From Marsupella aquatica (Eukaryota > Plantae > Marchantiophyta), in contig OZ316895.1 in NCBI GenBank assembly GCA_973895155.1, positions 6,684,184-6,748,183 of the forward strand: a DNA stretch of 64,000 nt. The letters run 5' to 3'. The notes beneath the pieces were generated by a model. It was given only the letters and a program-made list of their open reading frames with translations. It did no database searches and was not told the origin of the DNA. The position numbers were made by a program, and so were the translations under genes. This document shows, piece after piece, positions 10,038-57,336 of this stretch; positions within the stretch are counted from its first letter, which is position 1; each line of letters begins with the position of its first letter.

Positions 10038-10324
10038 CTCGGGGGGTTAACTAAATATATATTTTGGGGTACCACGTGCGATCCTAGCCTAATATAAATA
10101 CACATATTTTATAAAGAGAATATTCCAAGAATATTCTCTATTTTCAATATTAATAACCTATTTTACTTTATAAAGGGTATATATTAAAGAATATTCTATA
10201 AACATGAGTTTATAATACCTTCTTTTGCCTCCTACGCTTTTTAAAAATTTAGTTAAAATCTGCCAAAAATACCTATTTTGGATCACACGTGGTTCCTAAG
10301 ATTTTTGATAGTCAACCCCCCGAG
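10038..10324. mobile_element. MITE, 287 bp
   Basis: TIR CTCGGGGGGTTAACTA / TAGTCAACCCCCCGAG; 8-bp TSD CATCCATG (10030-10037, 10325-10332). Confidence 0.9.
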
Positions 10325-33792: not shown

Positions 33793-34284
33793 TCTCCCGA
33801 TACCCTGACCTCACTCGTGCCGGAGCATTGGCCGGTCTTTGATTCTTAGTCAATTCTATTTGATTATAGGCTATACTAAATTTCTGGGGGGTTCCCTGGG
33901 GAACCTGATTTAATCACCATTGAATCAGAGCGAGTACAGTTGTTTGTGTTGAGCCTGGGAGAGATGCAGAATGATGCTTAAACCGCCACTGTCCACAACA
34001 AAAACCTGGTTATACCAGGTTTCTTAATTTAGGGAGATATTTCAGGCCCGGGCATTCCCGCTTGTTTCTGGTGTCACTTTTTGGCCCGGTCAGCTTGACA
34101 CCTGTCCTGTGTCCCTGCTCGTTTTACGGAGGGGCGTGACTTCCAAAAGCCTAGGTGGGCAAGTCCTCTCGCCCATGAAGCACCTGTGTCCAGAGCACAG
34201 TAGTGCTTTTCCTCCTCCCATGCTGCGAGTCAGCAAGTGTAAACCATTGCAGAGTCGATCGAAATTGTGTTCACAAGCCTACTC

Positions 34285-35917
34285 GAGCAATGTATTCAGC
34301 TTTGCAAGTTTACTTCCTGGACAGACGTGATTTCCCCCGGCGAATGGGAGATACGTTCCTGGTCTAGGAGCTACCGTGAAGCGAGCGGCGTCAAGAGCTA
34401 TGGGTGAAGGGTAAATTGCAGGATCCAGATGGATGCAAATAGTCATGACGAAAACTCTCCAACCCTTAGGAATGAGATAACCTTTTTACTCTACATCTTG
34501 CGTTGCAGCGCGACTGGTGAATTGCAAAATTGTTGGATCTCTCAATGTTTCTTGAATAACCTGATGTGTAAAAGGCATTTTTTGAGTGTCTTCCCAAGTC
34601 AGAAGGCTTGCCTGGTTCTTTCAGTCTCACGATTTCGTCTTGCTCAGCCGCTAGATTCTTTCAGTCTCAAGATTTCGTCTTGCTCAGGCACTATAGCTTT
34701 CCACATGTCAGGATTCTCAGTAAGAAACTTGATAATCCACGTAAAGTGAAGTGGCTGTTGTATCATGTACGTGCTCCAAATAAAGTCCCAATGAGAACAT
34801 CTATAATTTCGTCTTTCTCCATGGCTATTGCCGTTCTCGTCTATGGCAACCACCAATGCTCACTATACGCTATTACACGGTTTGCTTTCTTCTGCATCTT
34901 TCCTACTTTCGGTAATTAATGTGTCCAAATACTTGCATGCTCGCTGCTTGCTCTGCCAGACAGGTCATTTGAAACTATCAAATTGATCGCCTCTTTTGAA
35001 CTTCAAGCAGATTGAGTCATACATCATTGCTTTGTTCAATCCAATTAATAATTAGATGTGATTACTTCTACACGTGATGACAATGAGGGGACCAAACGCA
35101 GCATCCATTCACGGACATCTATATCCTTCTCAACTATGAGCAGCGGTCTACACAAGCTTCAACAACGTGATCTACCTCACTGAACATGCAGCTGTCCGTG
35201 AAAAAGGAAGCTGCGTACCTGCAAAGCTTTATACCAAGAGAAGCTCCATACCTGCAATCCATTTAATTGCAAAAACTTTCAGAAATTATCACACCTTGGC
35301 CCAGCTGACATTCTAAAGTGAAGGCTCTTATGGCAACAGGCCATTGGGGGATTGGATCTTCAATCTCTCTTTGCTTCAATTTGACAGTATCTGATTTTCG
35401 TGTTAGAGCTGGAAGGTGCACTCTCTCTAGATCCGCTATCACAGGGTGGGAGAAAAGGAGTAACACCCCCTGGCAAAGGGACGGGAATCGTTCGGCAGCC
35501 ACAGCCCAAATTTCTGGAGAAATATTTGTCGACCTATTGACTTGAAATATAGTGCAAAAAATGAATGAGCTACTGCACAATTCCTTCAGTGAATTTATCC
35601 ATTCCTTGCGTCCATACGTTCATTCATTCATCGGTCTGTCAGAATGAAAGAAGTTAATGTGCAACAATGGTCTTACTTCTTCACGCGAGGCATGGCTGAC
35701 TCGACAGGATCGGCATTTGCAACAACCAGTGTTTCTCCGGTCAGGGGCCACCCATTGGACCCTCTGGGAATTTTAGGCTTCGAGCTCCCGTAAATGCTTT
35801 GTGGCAACGCATGATTTAGGACCACCCATAAGAAATGGAGAACAAGAGCTCCCAACACGATTGGCACTGCCACAGGATATGTGCTTACATTAGGCCAATG
35901 AAGCTCATCTAATTTGC
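34285..35917 (-). pseudogene. Cytochrome P450, CYP85-clan-like, truncated pseudogene
   Basis: Membrane anchor plus PRGSNGWPLTGETL; I-helix GA(H)DTT disrupted by a 4-bp insertion; LTWEDTQKMPFTHQVIQETLR (ExxR about 34540-34551); GYLIPKGW; heme motif FAGGNHVCPG (34315-34344). In-frame stops, frameshifts, a roughly 40-bp internal duplication (about 34616-34687), no ATG, and C-terminus lost shortly after the heme Cys. Confidence 0.9.
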
Positions 35918-35942
35918 GCTACTGTGGCCAGTGACGCTCACC

Positions 35943-36030
35943 GTCCGCGCCCATGCCTATTGTGGCTCCGGGTGTGGCTCACAATCCGCGCCCATGCCTA
36001 TTGTGGCTCACAGTCCGCGCCCATGCCTAC
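35943..36030. repeat. GC-rich short direct repeats, 3 copies
   Basis: TCCGCGCCCATGCCTA three times, interspersed with TGTGGCTC. Confidence 0.85.
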
Positions 36031-36257
36031 CGTCAACGTTCACAGCTCATAGGTTCTATACTTCTATAAGTGGTTCTCGCTTTTTCGGTTTACAATCAAA
36101 ATTGTGTACTTGCGCTGCTTCTCATTTTTCGGGTTTACGACTCCGGTAAGAAGCGCATGCTTCAACTACATTTGCACCTCATTTTCTCTGTTCCTTGGTT
36201 TGAATGAGCTCAAGGCCGAGTTAGAAAATTTTCTCTGTTCCTTCGATCAAACGTTTT

Positions 36258-36383
36258 GCAGTTCGTTGTTCTTTGATCGGCCATTCAATAGTTCGTTGTT
36301 CTTTGATCGGCCATTCAGCAGTTCGTTGTTCTTTGATCGGCCATTCAGCAGTTCGTTGTTCTTTGATCGGCCATTCTGCAGTT
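36258..36383. repeat. 30-bp tandem repeat, 4 copies
   Basis: GTTCGTTGTTCTTTGATCGGCCATTCAGCA units start at 36261, 36291, 36321 and 36351, with a degenerate copy at about 36421-36460. Confidence 0.95.
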
Positions 36384-36894
36384 GAGCTCGACAGAACAGT
36401 TTGCAGAGAAAATTTCTTCCCGCAGTTGGTTTTGTTCTTCCATCGGCCGATTGCAGTTCAGTTGTTCTTGGAACATCATAATACACTTACCCTAGCAGAT
36501 ATTGACTGGATTCTTGATACCTTGGAGTTATTGACTGGTTTCTCAATCACCCTTATCGGCATGAATAATGCCAGGTACATTAAATTATGCATGCCTACAA
36601 TTTTTAAATATCTCTTCCAATTGACCCAATACCTTCAATTATGTATGCCTAAAACTTGGTACTTACCCTTCATTTTCTTGTTGGTCATGTTTGCATTTCA
36701 GTGTGGCCAATTTGCATGCATATACTTTGCCTATACTTTGCCTACCTTAGCAAATATGTTAATTTTTTTTCAATTAACTTTGCTTGCTTGCTCTTGCTTG
36801 TTCTTGCTCAATATAACCTCCATCAAACAATAATTACCTTGCCTAGTTTTGTAGGGATACTAATTGCACTTGTTCATTTTCCTATGTTTTGTAG

Positions 36895-37297
36895 GAGCTC
36901 CGAGCATCAGAACAGACCGGCTGAGCTAACCTCCTATGGAGATGACATATATCACTTATCATGGCCAGTTCCTCCGCCGGGACGTCGGAAATTTCGATTG
37001 TTGAGACATGCTGACATAGTTGCTAGATTCCCGGCATTTTGCACGGCAATAGACGACAACCTTCAGGACCTCAACTCTGCCCAGATTCTTTCCCCCGCGA
37101 CAGCTGAAGCTTTTCATATGTGTGCCGCATGGGCATACACTGAAACAGTTCCTCGTCGACAGAGGTATATTGTGTATCGCAAACTAGCATATGTTGCTAG
37201 CTTTGCAGAGAGAACACCTTTCCCAGCAGCAGTCACAGCTACGGTGCAGTCTACTTGGGAACTACCGGGCGAACAACATGTGGGTTTCCGATTTTAG
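36895..37297 (+). CDS. KolX-like accessory protein, last exon (P2X7 C-terminal-like motif)
   Basis: Acceptor TTTTGTAG ends at 36894. C-terminus RRQRYIVYRKLAY...ERTPFPAAVTATVQSTWELPGEQHVGF resembles the RYxAYR...RxPLPxCV..IR..FP..GxYxGF motif of KolX and the P2X7 C-terminus. Lies tail-to-tail with the transposase. Upstream exon(s) not identified. Confidence 0.6.
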
Positions 37298-38221
37298 GTT
37301 TCTATGTTGTGTTTTTTTTTCACCATTGTTGTTTCATAACTTGAGTTATGATTTCATGGGTTCTTTATTTCACCATTTTCTTCATGTTTATTTCACATGT
37401 GCCTCCTTTCCTTTCCCAACCTCAAGTGTAAATAACCTGGGAGTTGCTAAGCAGTCACCATGTTGGTGTATGTCTTTAGTGCTCTAAAGCTGTGTAACTA
37501 TGTTTCCATCTATGTTTACTTATTGTTCCAAGGTTTCTTTGTTATACTAGCTATACTATTTCATTTTCCTTGTTTGGCATGTGCCTCTTTTTTTCTCCCA
37601 ATTGCACTGCAAAATCCTTGGGAATTGCGAGGCAAACACCATCTTGGCTTTTGCATTTGGTTTTTGAAGTTTTTGATTTTAATGTGTCTGTATTTGTTTA
37701 TTCCTAGTATTTTCATTGTATGAGTTATCTGTGCTTCTTGTTTTGTTGTGTTTGTTTGGCTTGTGCCTCCTTCCCCCTCCTTTGGGTTGGAACTCCTACT
37801 GGATGGCAGCACGAGGGGTTCAATTCCCCTTTGGAGTATTGTTAGATTGTGAAAAATATTAGTAATGTATCCCCTAAGGTTTTTTGCAATGCAATGTCAT
37901 GCTGCATCTTACTCTTAGCTCATAGGCAGGGCAAGTAAGCGACACTTGGTCCATGGCCATCACTCACAGTTGATATACAAGGACATAACTCACAACTATC
38001 ATCGATGGTGCTAAGCCCTAATATAACTTTCACATCCTACAAATATATATTCTATTACAAAAACAAACATAAATGGCAAGGCTAGGTGATATATGGGACT
38101 ATTAAGATAACAAATGAATATTATAAAACCTACAACTCACATGTGTCCCAAATGTCAAATGCACGACAAGGATGAAAGTTTCCAACCAAAATAAAAGTTT
38201 TGACCAAGTATCACAAATCAT

Positions 38222-41200
38222 AGTCTACACCTCTTCCAAATATGACATGGCCCACATCTTTCTTCCATCTGATGCTTCTAGGAACAAGGTCACGAACCCT
38301 TGATGTACGCTGACGGGTACATGTATTACTAGGCTGCCGTGTTCAAACTCGGACCACCTCTCGACCAATGTTTTCATTCCAACACATTGCAGCACATGCC
38401 ATGCGGGCTTCATGAGTCATGGAAAAATGAATCCTCTTCATAGCATATTTGTTGATGTTTCCATGAAATGTTTCACTGAAAAAGTTAGCTCGGGCTCTAG
38501 TGTAGAAGCGAACATTGATTGCAGTGACATTCTTAAGCAACCACTGCTTCAAAGCTCTATGTGTAGCACCCCCTGAAAAATCCACAAGATTCCATGTATT
38601 TGAAAATATTAGAAATCCCAAAAGATTGGGTAACAATCCAAACACATTATCCATCTCATAACTAAATACACAACCAAATTTAATAATCAATACACAATAC
38701 CTGCCGCATAGTATGGCATATAAGTTGCACCTTCCTCACAACACTTGCGAGGAAGAAAGCTTTTGCAAGGTTCATGGTTACCAGCCCAATGATCAGCTGC
38801 TGTGATGATCTCTTCAACCAACATGGTAGCATCATCATTTCCCCTGCTAGTAAGTAGTCATTACAATATAATTTGAGAGTTAGCTTAGTTCAAAAAATGA
38901 AAGAGTTCATTGCTCAAGCTAATTTCAATGCAATTTAATATCGTAGTTGCCAACCTACGTACCTTTCTTTTGCATTGCAGCAACAATAGTAGAACCAGCT
39001 CTTCAACTTATCACCAAGCTATTTTCTGTCAGTTCTGGATACTTCAATTGCCTCCTGGTGCGCAATGTGATGTCCTCCTCCGGAAACCCTTTGTCTTCCT
39101 ATGCGGTGCACCAACTCTGTCTTATTACCTGTATGCCTCAAATTTTGATTCTTGCACCAATTTGACAACACTTGAACTGTGAATCTGCCCAGTTCTTGCA
39201 AGGATATTGCACTATCAATCCCACCTGCAGGTGCTGTTTCTTTCACATTTGCTAGCTCTTTGTTAAACTGCTTCAGAAGATTCTTACATTTGTGCCATAG
39301 ATCCTTCTGGTTATCAACATTGAGCTCACGAAGAATAGCATCAACTGTGTTGTTATCATCGTGAACAACCTCACTAATTGTAACTCCAACATCCAGAAGA
39401 TGCTGCAGGGCACGACGAACACCAATTGCTTCAATAGCGCCTGAATTCCCAGCCTCAACTCGGTCAATTGTTACAAGCTCTACTACCTTACAAGTTGTCA
39501 TGTCTATGACAGGAACAGTGCCATGATATCCAGAACGTGATGAGTCCCAACGACAATCCACATATAAAATCATTGGAGTGGAACCTACAATTATCATAAA
39601 TCCATAAAATAATATTTAGAAACCAACATGTACATGCATCATGCTCTAACAACCTAGTATGTAATAAATTGATAATTCACCAATCAATCTGCTAACTAGA
39701 AAATGTTTAACTACAAAGAAGATTGACATACCATCTCTTTCTGCTAGGCTTCGTTGCAACCTTTGTTTCTTATCATTCCAAACTTGTAGTACTGCTGCAA
39801 TCCATCCAATGTCTCTTCGGGCTCTATTTTGAAATCGAAACCAATGGGTGTTTCTTGGAACATGAATTTTAATGTAAGAGAATAGTTCACATATGACATT
39901 GTGTGTTAGACCAGCAGAGAGAGCAGAGTGATAAATTAGTCCAGTGATTGCGGGTACACCTGTATTCACCAATAAAACTAGATGTCATACAAATATTAAA
40001 AGGAAACAAACAATATTAAATCAATTCAATACAAAAGTGAAAAACAATATTAATTTGAGCAGCTGACATACCTCTATGAAGTTCATTCTCTCCAGTCATG
40101 AAAGATTGTGTATGGCCTGATGGGCATTTCAACTTCAATATCCACAATTGATGATGGGTCACAATGTCCTCGACTGAATACTTACCAATGCAACCTTCAA
40201 CACGACAATCCACACGAAATTCCTGGAAAAATTCGCGAACCTTGCTTTTTTGCCAAAAAGCATACTCCACTAGAATCTCAGGGTCTGACTCATTTGTATT
40301 TTCTTGAGACGATGGCTCGTACTCAGAACTCGGGGGGGTCACTTCCACGGAAGTGACACATCACGTGCGACGAAGTATAGGCCCATTTAAATGGGTGTGG
40401 CGGAAGACTTCCAAAGTTTGGTGGAAGAACACATAGGGCATGTTTTATTGATTGGTCGACTTTAAAGAACACATAGGCCTATTTAATTGCAAAAAATACT
40501 TTCTATAAAGTTTTTAGGGGTTTTTTAATAAAAAATGACAAAATTTTAAGAAAGAAAGGGCTTTGCAAAAAAATATTTTTCACTTTAAAGTTAGGGGGGT
40601 CAAACCCTAAAACGTCGCACGCGATGTATGACCCTCCATATAGTGACCCCCCCGAGACTCAGAATCCAAATGAGAGTCAACTTCTACTTGCTCCAAAGAA
40701 GTAGATGCCTAGAAAAGCACACAATATTTAGCAAACTATGTAAAGATGCAATAAATAGAATATATATAATTAAAACTATGAATTGATGCCAATGACAGTC
40801 AATGGCAACATTGTGAAAAAATACAATACCTGAGTGTGATTCTCTTCAAATCCAGAATCCATGAAAACCATATTGTCTAACCCAAATGTAGTTGGATCAG
40901 CCACTTCTAGCAAACGAATGGCTTCATCTTCATTTGACATCTGTTAAGAGTTTAGGGTTCAACATTGTTTCTTAGTTGAAGGTACTAAGGTTTACATAAA
41001 ATGAATGCATTGTTTTATGTAAAGTAAAGGAACTTTCATCATTTGCATGACTTGTCATTTTATGGAACAAATGTAATACAAGCAAAAGGATTAAATTAAA
41101 CCCCTAAACAAAGTTACCTGGGAATTGGACATCACATAACCATTTTCCACGTCTATGTTGGAATCCGGAATGTGGTCTACATTCTCCTCTCCAGACTCCA

Positions 41201-41854
41201 TGTGGTCAAATAAATTAGTGTCCAAGTTTGAATCACCTTCCTCTTTGTCTGAAGGTGATTCCTCGTTAGGAATGGACTCGTCACCATTTGGAATGGCTGA
41301 CAGTGCACCACAAGATGGCTGCAAGAAAAATTAAAATAAAAACATGTGTCGACAATGATACTAAATCAGGATGTCCCAAAGACAAAACCTCTACATTTTG
41401 GATAACCCCAATTTTTAAAATACAGAAAAAAAGATGCTAGAAGAGGTTACTTGAATGAAAACCTAGAAAAACGAGGATTAGTGAAAGAAAGCAATATTGA
41501 AAGTAGAATGATAAATGATATCAAAAGTACCTCGGCGATGATCCCAAATGTTCCCAAGTCCTCTTCATTAGCAAGATGCTCATTATTTATCCATCCAAAA
41601 TCATTAGGACCCTCAAATACTGTTACTTCCTCTTCATTCCGTCTATGATGAGCGCTAATAGCAGCAGAGATTTGCATGGACATACCATCCATCAACCAAG
41701 CCACCACCTTCCCATGGGACATATTTAGGGCACCCTGTAAGTCATGGTATGTATGTATATGACTTACAGGAAGCCTAAATGCAACATTGCCCCCAACTCG
41801 GTGATAATCAATCCTTTGTGGTTGACGGACCATTTCTCCTACTCTGGCAACCAA
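38222..41854 (-). pseudogene. Kolobok-type DDE transposase, multi-exon, disrupted
   Basis: CxxxxC...CPSGH zinc-finger-like segment; YVDCRWDSSRSGYHGT (first D), VVHDD (second D), KDLWHKCK, SETFHGNINKYAMKRIHF (E), ARMACAAMCWNEN. These match the GDGRCDSPG / TDRH / DxWH / LExFH...KY.PKR pattern I recall for Kolobok transposases. Frameshifts near 39000-39100, a premature stop at 38343-38345 and a MITE insertion. True 5' end uncertain. Confidence 0.75.
40329..40656. mobile_element. MITE, 328 bp, inserted in a transposase exon
   Basis: TIR CTCGGGGGGGTCACT / AGTGACCCCCCCGAG; 8-bp TSD ACTCAGAA. Removing it restores the frame ...VDSHLDSEYEPSSQE. Confidence 0.92.
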
Positions 41855-43439
41855 AACAATACAATGTCAACATTATTTTGCAAATTATAAGTCGTTATAT
41901 TTGTCTAGTACCATGCTCACAAGAATGCACTTATGGAAAAAGATGCAAGAATTTAGTTAGTAGGTTCATACCTTCCCTTGCAACAAATGCAAATGCTCTA
42001 TGTGTAGCACCCAAGTGAGTGCCTTGCTACATGGCAAGTCCAAAACCAAATACCTTGCCAGACGGGAGGTCGCAAAAAAAAAAGTGGACCTTAGTCTCCC
42101 TCACCAAATCAGCATTTGACCCACACAAGTGTTCTAAAAACAAATTTGTGAGACTTATCACCCTCTAGGACGAGTCGAGGCTCCTTCCCTTTCCATGCCC
42201 ATCATAGTTCTCAATTGTCACGTCAACGGATTTGTCCTACATATCTTGCCACTACCGTGTACATTGTGTGTAAACCATGCCATCTTGCCCCCGATCTCGC
42301 CCCGACCCTGTACGTTGCCCCGACCCTGTAAGTTCTGTGTAAACCTAGAAATGCACGATAGAACTGGCCGACTCCCGTTTAGTGTAAGCCATGTTGACCC
42401 TACCGAAGTACGAGTCATTGTGTGTAAAACGATCGATCATTGCACCTGGAAGCTTCCTTCGTCATCTATGACTAACTTGAAGTGCATGGCCAGGAAGGAG
42501 AAGCATTGCCAATTCGCGATCCTCACAAACATTGTGATGGCTAGAGAAGGTTAGGAAATTTAGGTTCTATGAAACCGATTGTTTTCCCCTATCGTAGAGG
42601 GAGGATGTTCAGAGGTAGGATGTTGAGTATGAATCAAAGAATCAGCCGGCTATTGTGCTCAGTCACATCATGTGGTTTGAGTTGAATGTTCAAAAGTAAT
42701 GAAGCACAATGTTGCGGCCTTGCGAAGCTGTCATATCTTCTGGTTAGCAATGTGCAAACATCATTGGTCAATGAAAATGAGCAGATACGTAAATCAAGCA
42801 CAATCTGGCGGTAGAGACTGGAGAGTGTGACAGCTCGATTGCGCAATCGCAGCTTATATTAGAGCAATCCATAATATCACAGTAGCAGTTGTGCTTTGCT
42901 TGTCGGCTTTTGCCATTTCTGTCTCTAAATATACGGCAGCGCATGTCCAGTTTTTAGTTGGCTTTGACATTGTGAAGGTTCTCTATCCAAGTGACCAGTA
43001 AGCTTTGGCGATGGCGGGCAATAGCAAGTGAACGGAGTCTCTCCCAAGATCGAACGAGGATTGGTGATTGTTGATCATGGCAGACACCTAAAACATATCT
43101 CCTCTCCTCCTCTGCTTGACATGTCGGAAGTCCAGTCTACTTCTCTTTGAGTTGCTCTGTTTGAGTTGCCATTCTCACAACATATAATCAACTTCATATA
43201 GAGATCTCTCGACCAGAGTGGATTCTATTAGGGACTGCGCTTTCTATTCTTCTTTTCCCCGCTCATGCTCACCCATACGCCTTCATCAAACGTGGTTGAC
43301 TTGCTGTGATCTTTCAATCCGTGTCCGCAACCTCGATTACATGTTGAGTAGCTTGCAATCCGTGGCATTTGAATCTCCGGCTTGAAACGAAAACTTTACT
43401 GAGAAATGTGGGGGCTGAAGGTAGCAGGGAATTCGGATC

Positions 43440-44230
43440 TGAACAGTAGGGAATAGGGGAACAGCTCTCAGGATTTCGAATGGACAGCGGAAAAGAAATG
43501 GATATTGAAGTTTACAAATCCCGTTCCCTGCTGTTCAGACACCACTGGAGGCATCAGTGCGGGCTTGAATTGCAGGCTCAAATTGCGGGATCTGTCGGGC
43601 AGAACCCACTGTATTTTCAAAGCTTTGCCAGATAGACAGAGAGAGGATGCCAAATTGCCAAGTTCGCAGGACAGAGAGCTTCTTGAGAATCTTGAGGGAG
43701 CGCAAATGTTGATGAGTGTCGAGAGCAATTAGAAGCAAAGTAAATGCAGAGTTTGGATAATTATGGAGAGCTTTAGGCAATACTCCACAGGCAGAGTTCT
43801 TCCTTCATGTTCCGGTTATACTGCTATTGGCATGAGCCATTGCTCTTGTTCATATACTTGTCACTATGAATCAAAACGGGGAGACTTGAGTTTGCTTTTC
43901 CAGGTATCTGTACATATGCTCAATCGCAGCAGAGCAGGGCAGGGAGACAAGAAATAACAATGTAACCTTTTCGCCTTCTTGCTATTGAGACTGTGTCTTG
44001 CTGGACAAATTTGTGATCGATGTCATAAGAAGTGTAAACTTTGAACATAACAATAAAAATTGCTGGCTATAAACACCTCTGCGATCGACCTGTATTCCGG
44101 GACAATTTCAACAAGCGATGGACAATGTCCCATGTGCAAGAGCTGCTGGGAGTTATTGTGTGCCAAAGGATGACCCAATTTTGGTCGCGATACATTTTGG
44201 AGTTCAGAGAACACATGTGGCGATTCCACT
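43440..44230 (-). pseudogene. Probable degenerate leucine-rich-repeat gene fragment
   Basis: Plant-LRR-like pieces (LAHNNSQQL..MGHCPSLVEI; CELGNLASSLCLSGKAL...LPDRSRNLSL) in broken frames. Confidence 0.35.
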
Positions 44231-44685
44231 ATTCATTCAGCCGACAAACAGAATCCCCCATGTTGATTACAATAGCCTTTGAAGCCCAGCCCACTCACGA
44301 ACCTCCATGGCTATGGCAGCAGCCCACCACACTAACGAGCCACGGATAAGGAGGCCTTCACGCGAACAAGATACTGTTTGGTAAACCCAACTTGCTTTTT
44401 GGTGGACCCAGCATGTATTGCGGAGCCTGGCTGGGGCTACGGGCTCTGGCTGGGAGGCAGGAGCTGAGCCTTTGCTGGGCACCTCGTCAGAAAATGACCT
44501 GACCGTTACTTGGCTTATGTGGTATTTATACGGACAGTGGCGGTTTAAGGTCTCTCTGTATAGATATTCAATAAAACAAGGTGAAGGCAGAGTATAGGAG
44601 GGTAGGGTAAGGTCACTCAGAACAATATGATCACTGCTGACTGTATAGATATTCAATAAAACCATTGCGGAGAACAATATGAAAC

Positions 44686-53635: not shown

Positions 53636-53807
53636 ATTTAAATTTAAATTTTTAACCCTACAGAGTCCGGATATTATTGGAATGTTCTAATAATTGGTTA
53701 GAAAGACATTAATATTCTTGTAAGTATCAAAATTGGATTAAAAAAATCTTATTGTTTTTTTGATAAAAAATTTAAATCTTCCCTTGAACCAATAAAACTA
53801 TTCTATC

Positions 53808-54985
53808 TGGAGATACTTGACAATCACTACCCTGAGATTTGAGTGATCTGTGGCTGCTAGACTAACCACCTACAAGCTAGATAAAAAAAATAGCCCAGAC
53901 TGGAGCGTATTCATTTAAAGATTAAGGCTAGCAGATGATTTGGGTTTTACGTTGCTGACAACCAACTACCATGTGGTCAACTGTGATACAATAGTCAATC
54001 AGTCATACTATGTTTGGTTCGTTACGGTCTTAATTTTGTCGCGAATCTCGTGCAAGCCATTATGCGGGCGGACAATTTGAAGCAGCCTTAAAGCTTTGAC
54101 CAGCAGAAGTGGCAGCTTACGCCTTCCCTCTTTTCGCCGGGCAAATTGTGGATGCTCTGACAGCGTTGCATGTACTTTGTCTGATACTAGACTGAGGTAC
54201 GTGCAGTCGGGATAGTGGAAAACTTTCAATTCAATTGTGATCCAGGTATATGTTCAGTTACACGAATTGCGTATATATTTGCGAATAGGTCGACTCTATG
54301 GAACAGTTGTTTACTGATCGAGACGGCATATCCACTATCAAATTTGGTAGACGAACTTGTTCTCGTTTGTATGCTTGAGTGTGCATATGTATATCACGCG
54401 CTTCGAAGGCACTGAGAATTGTACGTTGGGCCTCTACCTTAGTTATGACATAAAGTTACCTGCGAGGTTCTAGATTCTAGCTCAAGTGATTTGAGTATTA
54501 AATTTTTGATAAGATCTTGGGATCTTCAATTCTAGTCCAAACCAATATCGGATGGAAATTTTCCAAGAATGAGAAATCTGGACTCAGTACGTGATTCCGG
54601 AGAAAATAAATGTACGTGGTCCAAAAGTTTAAGCGAGATAGAGACAAGAAGTGGTCGAAATGTATTCTGTATTATGAAGCATTTGCTTCTCCTAGCATAT
54701 TTTCTAAATGTCAGGGCTGTCAGTACGTGATCTGCTGGTCCAGTCTCTGCGTCGTTGCAAAGTCTACCCAGATAGAGAAAATGAAAACTTACTCTGAAAT
54801 ATTCACTTAGTGTAAGACCCATGCCACTGACAAATCATAATGTATTTTCCATCTACGATAGTAATTCTGCTATAAACGAGGGTCTCATATTCTTAAACTC
54901 GCACTGAAATTTCCTTTCAATGGTCTGTGATGACCTGGACAAATCATCGACATGTTGTGAGAACGATGGAACGATGGAATGACTT
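53808..54985 (+). repeat. Segmental duplication copy B, paralogous to 13010-14120
   Basis: Collinear with 13010-14120; lies upstream of MTPSL4 as copy A lies upstream of MTPSL2. Confidence 0.92.
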
Positions 54986-55994: not shown

Positions 55995-57336
55995 TTGTCT
56001 TCCCCCGAACACAGCGCCCTGGCGCTCTGTTCAAATATGGTCAAAACAAGGACTTTAGGCAAAAAAGACGTTTTCACTCGAACATAACGCCATACTAACA
56101 CAGCGCCCGGGCATTGTGTTCGAAATTGACTTTGTTCAAAATGTGCACAAGTGACTATAGGAGAAAGGTAACCGGGTTGCAACTACAATACGTTACTTAA
56201 AATCGTCCGACACATCCGCTCTTTCGACTTACAAAATTCATCATCCTTTGAGAAATGTAAGCTAATTTCAAAATCCTTCATTCTCAGAGAAGTGTGCGTT
56301 GTTTCCAAAATGTTAAGCAGCAATCCGGAAGTATCGATATATTCTTCTGCTGTGTGAACTTTCAACGGACTTTCACATCAACCTCTGAGTGATGCCACAG
56401 CGTCTCGTCAAAGAAACCCATAGTGCATACGTGCATAATTAGGTCTGACGACTCACTTTCTATATTTTCAATTTTCCATTGCCCTCAAGATCCAAGCACT
56501 CCAATAGAAAAAAAGCAGTCTTATGAACATTCCAGATTGCATGAAGAAAGGTTAAATAATAGAAACAAACAAATTGGCCACAATTAACCAAACAACTCTG
56601 AAAAGCTTGGGGGTCTCACTATATGGAGACCTCCCTATCACCTGTGACGTTTTTAGGCCTCGGACACCCTAAAATGTAAGTAAAAGAATTTATTTTTTAA
56701 CCCCTATAAAGTTATTTGATTAAAAAAACTCTAATGTTCTTATAAATCTCAAAATTGGATTCCAATGACCCTATTGTTCTTCTACAAAACTTCTTAAGTC
56801 TTCCCTCAATCCAAACCAATAAAACAACCCTATAGTTACTTCGTCGTACGTGATGTGTCATTTTTGTGAAAGTGAAACCCCCGAGCTGAAAAGTGGGCGA
56901 ATATGTTTTACTAAGTGATAATTGTACACTTGGTACATATGGTTTGTCGGGTTTTGTTTTTTGTATTGCAAATTGATTTCTCCCCTTGTGTAATTTCAGT
57001 GGTTCAATTATTTAGCTACACATCCTTTGACCTGAGCAAATATTGTTGGGAAGTCAAAAAAACCTAAACTTGAACACACTCCCTCTTTAATACACATAAT
57101 TTCTATGCCTATCATTCTTACTTACAGCCTACATGCATCTCACAATGCCAAAATTCAAGCACATTACCTTAAATTTGAACACAATGCCACATTCCTAACA
57201 CAGCACCACAAGTCCAAAAAATGAAAACATTGACTTCAAACTCAAACACAACACCTTGGGCGCTATATTTGAATAGAGCGCCCCTTGGTTCACTATTTGA
57301 ATATAGCGCTCGGGCCTTGTGTTCAGGGGAAGATGG
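55995..57336. mobile_element. Non-autonomous TIR element, pogo/Tc1-mariner-like ends, hosting a MITE
   Basis: Imperfect TIR of about 40 bp, TCTTCCCCCGAACAC...GCGCT..TTCAAATA, with TA on both sides. An alternative reading is (A/C)ACTA...TAGTG with an ACT TSD at 55990-57341. Confidence 0.6.
56606..56885. mobile_element. MITE, 280 bp, same terminal type
   Basis: CTTGGGGG...CCCCCGAG termini; 8-bp TSD CTGAAAAG (56598-56605, 56886-56893); resembles the 40329 MITE in reverse orientation. Confidence 0.88.

What the first reader, a model, noticed from the sequence alone, without database searches (positions are those of the whole stretch)
33978..44548. Cargo-carrying Kolobok-like transposon (TTAA-flanked, 10.6 kb) in a land-plant terpene synthase array
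Seen: perfect 13-bp TIRs, TTAA on both sides, and an empty site that is collinear with the MTPSL1 3' flank, which fixes the boundaries. Inside are a DDE transposase and a small convergent ORF, with a P450 fragment on one side and LRR-like debris on the other. Known: a TTAA TSD plus a transposase and a tail-to-tail KolX ORF is the Kolobok architecture, described mainly from animals, fungi and protists. Gene-fragment capture in plants is known for Pack-MULEs, CACTA and Helitrons. Inference: this is a 'Pack-Kolobok' in a non-seed plant, which I am not aware of having been described. Caveats: the terminal AC does not fit the usual RR consensus, a TA TSD with AACC termini rebuilds the same empty site, and the transposase core could be nested in a separate non-autonomous element, although I found no inner TSD or TIR.
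Basis: partly seen in the sequence, partly recalled or inferred. Interest (0 to 1): 0.9.

Follow-up and report, generated by a model that had tools for sequence, protein, structure and literature searches.

The report
Land-plant Kolobok transposon carrying P450 fragment
This is a 10.6-kb jumping gene inserted at TTAA just behind a terpene synthase gene, with a broken transposase that most resembles the Kolobok group known mainly from animals, fungi and protists; it belongs to a lineage found here in liverworts and their algal relatives and carries a decayed piece of a cytochrome P450 gene that it likely picked up from its host.

Summary
The boundaries are real: TTAA 33978-81, perfect 13-bp TIRs, TTAA 44545-48, and the rebuilt empty site matches a paralogous flank at 20 of 21 bases. 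Public contigs show many other copies whose left end starts at the same TTAA. The transposase splices into nine GT-AG-bounded pieces (756 codons, D391/D457/DxxH/E670) but is dead here: two stop codons and a 328-bp MITE. It aligns over the whole core with a Kol0-type Kolobok transposase (hhalign 99.3%). Its nearest Atlas models carry KolobokD- and KolobokE-type architectures, so weak Pfam 'Mutator' hits do not indicate MULE. The small convergent ORF looks coding and matches only the cysteine-free tail of KolX. The P450 fragment is confirmed (E 2e-24); the LRR debris is not. The termini are AC..GT, so the RR..YY rule fails. My paper searches found no described land-plant Kolobok, but Repbase and Dfam could not be searched. 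Verdict: new variant of a known kind; capture by the element is likely but not shown.

The parts
33978..33981 (.). Left target-site duplication, TTAA, 185 nt behind the stop codon of a terpene synthase gene
   Evidence: Sequence. Other copies' left flanks diverge before 33978 or 33977.
33982..33994 (+). Left 13-bp terminal inverted repeat, beginning AC
   Evidence: Perfect match to the right TIR. Depth rises from 14.5 to about 315 here in run X2.
34002..34022 (.). Subterminal palindrome (9-bp arms, 3-nt loop), left end only; candidate transposase-binding site (inferred)
   Evidence: Read from the sequence; function not tested.
34294..34611 (-). Decayed cytochrome P450 fragment, K helix to haem-binding loop, without introns, CYP85-clan-like. 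By eye it extends to about 34960 (not significant).
   Evidence: Pfam p450 E 2.1e-24; best PDB hit CYP90B1, E 9.3e-10; upstream part had no P450 hit; stops, frameshifts and a short duplication.
36258..36383 (+). 30-bp tandem repeat, about four units, in the presumed intron upstream of the small ORF
36896..37297 (+). Last exon of a small convergent gene (133 codons after an AG acceptor), KolX-tail-like and cysteine-poor; start exon not resolved
   Evidence: 4 of 5 listed variants synonymous, the fifth I to V; core-level depth; C-terminal spacing motif shared with a KolX-like protein in PMC9587614 Data S6.
38211..41833 (-). Kolobok-type DDE transposase pseudogene, 756 codons: D391, D457, D476xxH479, SAP insert, E670; nonsense codons at 39019-39021 and 38343-38345
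   Evidence: Splicing; positions; 43% identity to Riccia sorocarpa P0001 over 567 columns; hhalign with Kol0-type P0175, probability 99.3%.
39100..39192 (-). SAP domain inserted between DxxH and the catalytic E
   Evidence: Pfam SAP E 1.7e-4 in the window exon (below cut-off); above cut-off in P0002, P0003, P0020, P0023, P0033; gap in Kol0-type P0175 at this place.
40329..40656 (.). 328-bp high-copy MITE of another family, 13-bp TIRs, 8-bp target duplication (40321-28 and 40657-64), inside a transposase exon
   Evidence: Sequence; joint 40320 to 40657 in other copies and very high depth.
42096..44531 (.). Right arm, shared by a subset of copies; no protein family identified
   Evidence: Depth about 4-13 times single copy; joints 37591 to 44003 and 43348 to 43732 in other copies; no Pfam or PDB hit.
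44532..44544 (-). Right 13-bp terminal inverted repeat, ending GT
44545..44548 (.). Right target-site duplication, TTAA
   Evidence: junction spanned without differences by a contig of run X3 (record 21).

Best explanation
This is one TTAA-flanked DNA transposon with 13-bp inverted ends and a broken DDE transposase, likely a copy of a Kolobok-related lineage of liverworts and streptophyte algae, whose left arm holds a decayed P450 fragment that was likely captured from the host. Shown: the ends, the empty site, the spliced transposase, its two stops and MITE, the SAP insert, the P450 fragment, and many other copies that share the TTAA left end and the two-gene core. Inferred from the known chemistry of C/DxxH transposases (hAT, P, IS256): the enzyme binds the TIRs, cuts the element out and inserts it at TTAA. 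Inferred: the SAP domain adds a DNA-binding surface inside the insertion domain, and the small protein is a reduced KolX-like accessory factor. Inferred: one sub-lineage gained the P450 piece next to its left end, and this defective copy was moved by an intact relative (about 55%) rather than dying in place.
For: Left-end loose ends of other copies fall at 33978 (7, 9, 7 contigs in runs X2, X3, X4) or 33977 (5, 7, 6) with unrelated flanks (agreement 0.46-0.52). Rough depth over single copy, X2 and X3: terminus 20 and 33, core bins 16-24 and 23-33, arm bins 2.5-6.8 and 4.7-13. A profile of 18 family members retrieves P0175 (E 2.2e-28 in 1.84 billion proteins). P0175 is by eye a close match to Kolobok_1_XT1p and Kolobok_1_BF1p in PMC9587614 Data S5 and aligns from the N-terminal Cys/His motif to past the catalytic E. 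Atlas structural neighbours include PF20700 with RNase_T and PF20700 with YqaJ (TM 0.70, 0.72), the architectures that define KolobokD and KolobokE. The window protein groups with 12 Riccia proteins (SH-aLRT 97, quick tree). In run X4 a contig matches the left flank exactly up to TTAA and goes on for 84 unlike letters (record 17), as an empty allele would.
Against: Termini are AC..GT, not RR..YY. Only one Kol0-type sequence, unnamed and assigned by eye, was in my tree, on a long branch, and no MULE, P or hAT outgroup was in it. The best solved-structure match is the IS256 transposase ISCth4 (Z 13.7, against Hermes 12.3); IS256 is the MULE relative. The small ORF has no Pfam, PDB, Atlas or homologue hit. 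Only the left end was examined across copies. Summed contig depth is not a true copy number. P450-like contigs may be host genes. The letters after TTAA in the X4 contig were not displayed.
Confidence: 0.8

Rival explanations
1. Same element, but the P450 fragment was not captured and carried: a P450 pseudogene or retrocopy landed in this copy, or in its parent, after insertion.
For: The fragment has no introns over the matched stretch. Its bin has the lowest depth in the element (2.5 times in X2). No second TIR-bounded copy with the P450 was seen.
Against: No poly(A) tail is visible at the 3' side of the fragment, which abuts the subterminal region. The fragment is more decayed than the perfect ends. 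Depth is above single copy in X2 and X3.
Confidence: 0.25
2. The two-gene core is a separate element nested in an unrelated non-autonomous TTAA element, or the 10.6 kb is a hybrid of two neighbouring insertions.
For: Arms are at lower depth than the core, and many copies leave the left-arm sequence within 50-210 bases.
Against: Terminus and core depths agree. A diverged copy joins 37591 to 44003 in three runs. There is no TTAA between 41419 and 44544, so no inner TTAA-flanked end exists on the right.
Confidence: 0.08
3. The transposase is a MULE, or founds a separate superfamily next to Kolobok.
For: Weak Pfam 'Mutator' PF20700 hits in 10 of 27 relatives scanned, one of them P0175 itself; one UniRef label 'MULE transposase domain'; IS256 is the top fold match; termini break the RR..YY rule.
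Against: The Kol0-type P0175 scores PF20700 above cut-off (46.6 bits), so that model covers Kolobok. The MULE model PF10551 hit only P0175, weakly, of 27. MULEs make 8-11-bp non-specific duplications (recalled), not TTAA.
Confidence: 0.07
4. The enzyme recognises TTAA but makes a 2-bp TA duplication, so the element is 14-bp-ended with AA..TT termini, which would fit RR..YY.
For: Sequence cannot separate the two readings if TTAA is an obligate target; both rebuild the same empty site. KolobokP families have duplications of 3 to 5 bp.
Against: A free TA target is excluded: no loose-end row at 33979 is among those shown, while 33978 and 33977 dominate (38 weaker rows not shown). A 4-bp TTAA duplication is the described Kolobok state.
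Confidence: 0.1

Closest known systems
Kolobok superfamily, Kol0 lineage (type Kolobok-1_XT; Kojima and Bao 2022, PMC9587614)
   Same: TTAA flanks, short TIRs, DDE core with DxxH, Cys/His motif between DxxH and E, and a second small gene with a KolX-like tail.
   Different: AC..GT termini; SAP domain inserted after DxxH; no THAP hit; small protein lacks most ballast cysteines; 10.6 kb with a host gene fragment; land-plant host. By eye the NQKDLWH region is as close to Kolobok_16_CGi, 1_OwFu and 1_MyEd as to Kol0.
Kolobok_1_KlNi in PMC9587614 Data S5 (my reading of the suffix: Klebsormidium nitens)
   Same: If the suffix is read correctly, Kolobok is already recorded in a streptophyte alga.
   Different: It has the CCHC finger after the first D, which the window protein and Klebsormidium P0023 lack, so it is another lineage.
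Pack-TYPE transposons (Pack-MULE, Pack-CACTA and others; PMC8903248 abstract, PMC13317346 passages)
   Same: Host gene fragment inside a TIR element that cannot move itself.
   Different: Pack-TYPE elements are defined as non-autonomous elements without the transposase; this copy keeps a broken two-gene core. The 2026 review does not contain the word Kolobok.
'SAP domain-containing proteins' annotated in Riccia sorocarpa and R. fluitans (for example KAL3694745.1)
   Same: Homologous from the N-terminal motif to the C-terminus; 43% identity over 567 columns.
   Different: Annotated as hypothetical host proteins; their flanking DNA could not be read here.

Membership tests
Kolobok superfamily | Transposase homologous to described Kolobok transposases (DDE with C/DxxH) | tested here: met
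   D391, D457, D476xxH479, E670; hhalign 99.3%, E 4e-20, 380 columns against P0175; P0175 assigned to Kol0 by eye against Data S5; Atlas neighbours.
Kolobok superfamily | TTAA target-site duplication | tested here: met
   Both flanks, empty site with one copy; left flanks of 12, 16 and 13 contigs of other copies. Right ends of other copies not examined.
Kolobok superfamily | 5'-RR..YY-3' termini | tested here: not met
   AC..GT under the TTAA reading; other copies match from the same place. For this reason filed as a variant, not a plain member.
Kolobok superfamily | Cys/His finger between DxxH and the last E (all but Kolobok1) | tested here: met
   H..C..C motif after the SAP insert, conserved across the family; feature as described.
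Kolobok superfamily | Placement inside the Kolobok tree against MULE, P and hAT | not testable with these tools
   No Repbase or Dfam; the paper's alignment could be read but not loaded. My tree had one Kol0-type row and no outgroup.
Kol0 lineage | KolX accessory protein with P2X7 ballast fold and 7 conserved cysteines | tested here: inconclusive
   C-terminal spacing motif present once in the window and 0 times in 60 shuffles, but chosen after seeing the match; two cysteines only; no Pfam hit at E<=1; model pLDDT 47, no fold match; first exon unresolved.
MULE/MuDR | MULE domain PF10551 and 8-11-bp non-specific duplication (latter recalled) | tested here: not met
   No PF10551 hit in the window exons or in P0001-P0003 at E<=1; TTAA flanks.
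piggyBac | TTAA duplication with CC[C/T] termini (recalled) and piggyBac transposase | tested here: not met
   Termini AC..GT; no piggyBac Pfam family; DxxH-type core.
Pack-TYPE elements | Host gene fragment between the TIRs | tested here: met
   P450 fragment, E 2.1e-24.
Pack-TYPE elements | Fragment carried to new sites with the element, parent gene identified | tested here: inconclusive
   Depth 2.5 and 4.7 times single copy in that bin; no assembly, so sibling copies and host paralogues cannot be told apart.

The most novel reading that the evidence does not exclude
An undescribed SAP-bearing Kolobok lineage has been inherited through streptophyte algae into liverworts, uses non-canonical AC..GT ends, is still being mobilised in this species, and moves fragments of specialised-metabolism genes (a P450) into terpene synthase clusters: a Pack-Kolobok and a TIR superfamily new to land plants.
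Probability: 0.4. Interest if true: 0.72.

Novelty: new variant of a known kind. Interest (0 to 1): 0.56.

Why it matters
Kojima and Bao list Kolobok in plants only for a chlorophyte and rhodophytes. A screen of 1007 plant genomes that included Kolobok among 17 superfamilies reported recently active clusters in seven others only (PMC12973397, passages). A multi-copy family in a non-seed land plant, with 27 relatives annotated as ordinary proteins in two Riccia genomes, would add a superfamily to the land-plant inventory and show that these genes are mis-annotated transposases. The SAP insert and the AC..GT ends give testable questions on how Kolobok enzymes read their ends. A TTAA-specific system native to bryophytes could become a tagging tool. 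Gene capture itself is expected, and this copy is dead, which limits the surprise.

Tried and rejected
No whole genome is held, so no genome-wide TIR search. Locus searches with the family alignment found no confirmed relative in metagenome contigs (0 of 79 pattern matches) or viral contigs (0 of 54); a terminus pattern found 0 in metagenome contigs. No RNA holder listed. Run X5 had no contig on the left end, which proves nothing. LRR cargo rejected as unsupported. A second P450-like stretch that I suspected by eye near 35266-35619 had no hit. The upstream extension of the P450 was not significant. Small ORF: no homologue among 19 candidates, no PDB sequence hit below E 1, no Atlas hit, low-confidence model without fold match. 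An exon-like stretch at about 42240-41972 does not splice in frame to the transposase by my reading and was left out. The wide structural search did not run. The careful tree did not finish; the quick tree is quoted. Paper searches: Kolobok+KolX 1 paper; +liverwort 1; +land plants+transposon 3; +plant genome 34; +bryophyte 0; +Marchantia 1; PF20700 0; with streptophyte terms, none of the 15 listed held Kolobok. Several angiosperm genome papers mention Kolobok once (spinach, lupin, Bischofia, Stellaria, Dracaena); I saw only the listing and take these for repeat-library labels, unchecked.
Full report
Boundaries. The sequence reads TTAA at 33978-33981, a 13-bp repeat at 33982-33994, its perfect reverse complement at 44532-44544 and TTAA at 44545-44548; similarity between the ends stops after base 13. 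Such a pair alone is weak: the window has 217 perfect 13-mer inverted pairs, 8 with a flanking 4-mer repeat, mostly from an inverted gene duplication. The empty site decides it. Removing the element and one TTAA gives a junction that matches the 3' flank of the first terpene synthase paralogue at 20 of 21 bases, with collinear blocks on both sides. The site is 185 nt behind the stop codon of a gene with a Terpene_syn_C_2 domain; three such genes hit Pfam and a fourth copy is seen by DNA similarity. The MTPSL label follows from that domain without an N-terminal terpene synthase hit among 96 ORFs of 85 aa or more; I did not test it further.

A family, with TTAA at its left end. No genome is held. 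Six public runs hold part of the stretch. On the left end, depth in run X2 rises from 14.5 to about 315 at the TTAA. Contigs of other copies leave the window sequence before 33978 (7, 9, 7 contigs in X2, X3, X4) or before 33977 (5, 7, 6) with unrelated flanks; 38 weaker rows were not shown and X5 had none. A free TA target would put most ends at 33979. The runs are up to four samples of two studies and share insertions, so the counts are not independent. As rough ratios to single-copy depth (X2, X3): terminus 20 and 33, five core bins 16-24 and 23-33, nine arm bins 2.5-6.8 and 4.7-13. The tool warns that summed depth is not a copy number. Other copies show internal deletions, including a joint from 37591 to 44003 in three runs that ties the small-ORF side to the right arm. 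No TTAA lies between 41419 and 44544. Together these argue against a nested core. In X4 one contig matches the flank exactly up to TTAA and continues for 84 unlike letters, as an empty allele would; the letters were not displayed. Right ends of other copies were not examined.

The transposase. Eight coding exons with GT-AG introns, one split by a MITE, splice in phase from 41833 to a stop at 38213-38211: 756 codons with nonsense codons at 570 and 713. The 328-bp MITE at 40329-40656 has an 8-bp duplication and is absent from other copies. This copy cannot make the enzyme. Catalytic positions are D391, D457, D476xxH479 and E670. A search with P0001 returned 31 proteins: 22 Riccia sorocarpa, 5 R. 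fluitans, 1 Klebsormidium nitens, 3 unnamed. A profile search found 1494 representatives at E<=0.001. Of the 150 listed I looked up 20, chosen for length: 12 Chara braunii, 5 Closterium, 1 Riccia, 1 unnamed, and 1 cluster labelled both Pyramimonas and Prorocentrum. In a quick tree of 27 rows the window protein groups with the 12 Riccia rows (SH-aLRT 97) on a long branch, 45% identity at best. A liverwort or other bryophyte host is therefore likely, not shown.

Which superfamily. The predicted fold of P0001 (pLDDT 71) matches IS256, P and hAT transposases, the C/DxxH group, and does not separate Kolobok from MULE. Sequence does. The profile retrieves P0175, which by eye is a close match to Kolobok_1_XT1p and Kolobok_1_BF1p in Data S5 of PMC9587614, and aligns with it over 380 columns (probability 99.3%); the window protein itself gives E 1e-16 pairwise. 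Ten of 27 relatives hit Pfam PF20700 'Mutator' at E<=0.01, but P0175 scores highest and above cut-off. Atlas neighbours pair PF20700 with a DEDDh or a YqaJ exonuclease or THAP, the first two being the KolobokD and KolobokE architectures. So PF20700 marks Kolobok-type proteins here. Against plain membership: the ends are AC..GT, not RR..YY, and no tree with named references could be built.

What is new in the enzyme. A SAP domain sits between DxxH and the Cys/His finger: E 1.7e-4 in the window exon, above the Pfam cut-off in five relatives, SAP structures as all but noise in the PDB profile search, and a gap in P0175 at that place. 'SAP domain' does not occur in the four supplements of PMC9587614. 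SAP binds DNA (established knowledge); a role in gripping the ends or target is my inference.

The small ORF. It follows an AG acceptor, has no in-frame start in this exon, and shares the depth of the core. Four of the five variants listed in it are synonymous and one is I to V (only the 40 best-supported rows were shown). Its C-terminus repeats the spacing R-x3-P-x10-W-x6-H/Y-x-G-F of a KolX-like protein in Data S6; the motif occurs once in the window and never in 60 shuffles, but was chosen after the match was seen. It lacks the cysteine cluster, like the piggyBac-borne versions the paper mentions. All database searches were blank. KolX-like tail: plausible, unproven.

Cargo. The P450 fragment at 34294-34611 is certain, closest to CYP90B1 among solved structures, without introns and with stops and frameshifts. 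It lies in the lowest-depth bin, so a minority of copies at most carry it. The LRR claim failed every test.

How it most likely works. An intact family member's transposase would bind the TIRs, excise the element and insert it at TTAA, perhaps preferring C-TTAA-G (18 of 41 left flanks share the C; P 0.03-0.09 per run). One sub-lineage likely gained the P450 piece near its left end and kept moving in trans while its own genes decayed.

Literature seen. PMC9587614: abstract, background, section 10, passages, supplement 1 part 1, supplement 3 parts 104-106; Figure S6 is a picture and could not be read. PMC12973397, bioRxiv 2021.09.26.461848, PMC11735767 (no 'Kolobok'), PMC13317346: passages. PMC8903248: abstract. 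Data S5 includes Kolobok_1_KlNi, probably from Klebsormidium but of another lineage. Ten searches found no paper describing a land-plant Kolobok element; the library lacks most subscription journals, and Repbase and Dfam may already hold an entry.

Verdict. Real element, Kolobok-type, dead copy, one real cargo. New variant of a known kind; interest 0.56.

Noticed in passing
window:19130-25394: Young Copia LTR retrotransposon with short LTRs of about 110 bp (99% identical) and a 5-bp target duplication; gag, integrase and RT domains hit Pfam.
   Followed up: partly
window:40329-40656, 10038-10324, near 56769-56885 and 706: A very high-copy MITE family with CTCGGGGG ends and an 8-bp duplication; depth hundreds of times single copy. 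Autonomous partner unknown.
   Followed up: partly
window:41419-44544: No TTAA in 3.1 kb, the longest such gap in the window; about 5 expected in 41900-44544. Seen after the fact; unexplained.
   Followed up: partly
window:38554-38571 and 41995-42012: An 18-bp exact repeat links the last transposase exon with an exon-like stretch upstream of the gene; possible trace of an internal rearrangement.
   Followed up: no
window:47750-47937: The 3' end of the third terpene synthase copy is inverted and is 98% identical over 116 bp to the first paralogue rather than to its own nearest copy.
   Followed up: no
window:10449-10730: Fragment of a DDE_Tnp_4 (Harbinger-type) transposase.
   Followed up: no
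window:49736-50092: Reverse transcriptase (RVT_1) fragment.
   Followed up: no
window:13006-14117 and 53804-54974: A 1.1-kb dispersed repeat, 85% identical, with no Pfam hit in the ORFs scanned.
   Followed up: no
P0175: Pfam PF20700 'Mutator-like transposase' scores Kolobok-type proteins, including exonuclease-fused ones; the label may mislead annotation.
   Followed up: partly
P0096, P0114: Closterium relatives have a long low-complexity expansion inside the insertion domain after the SAP-like segment.
   Followed up: no
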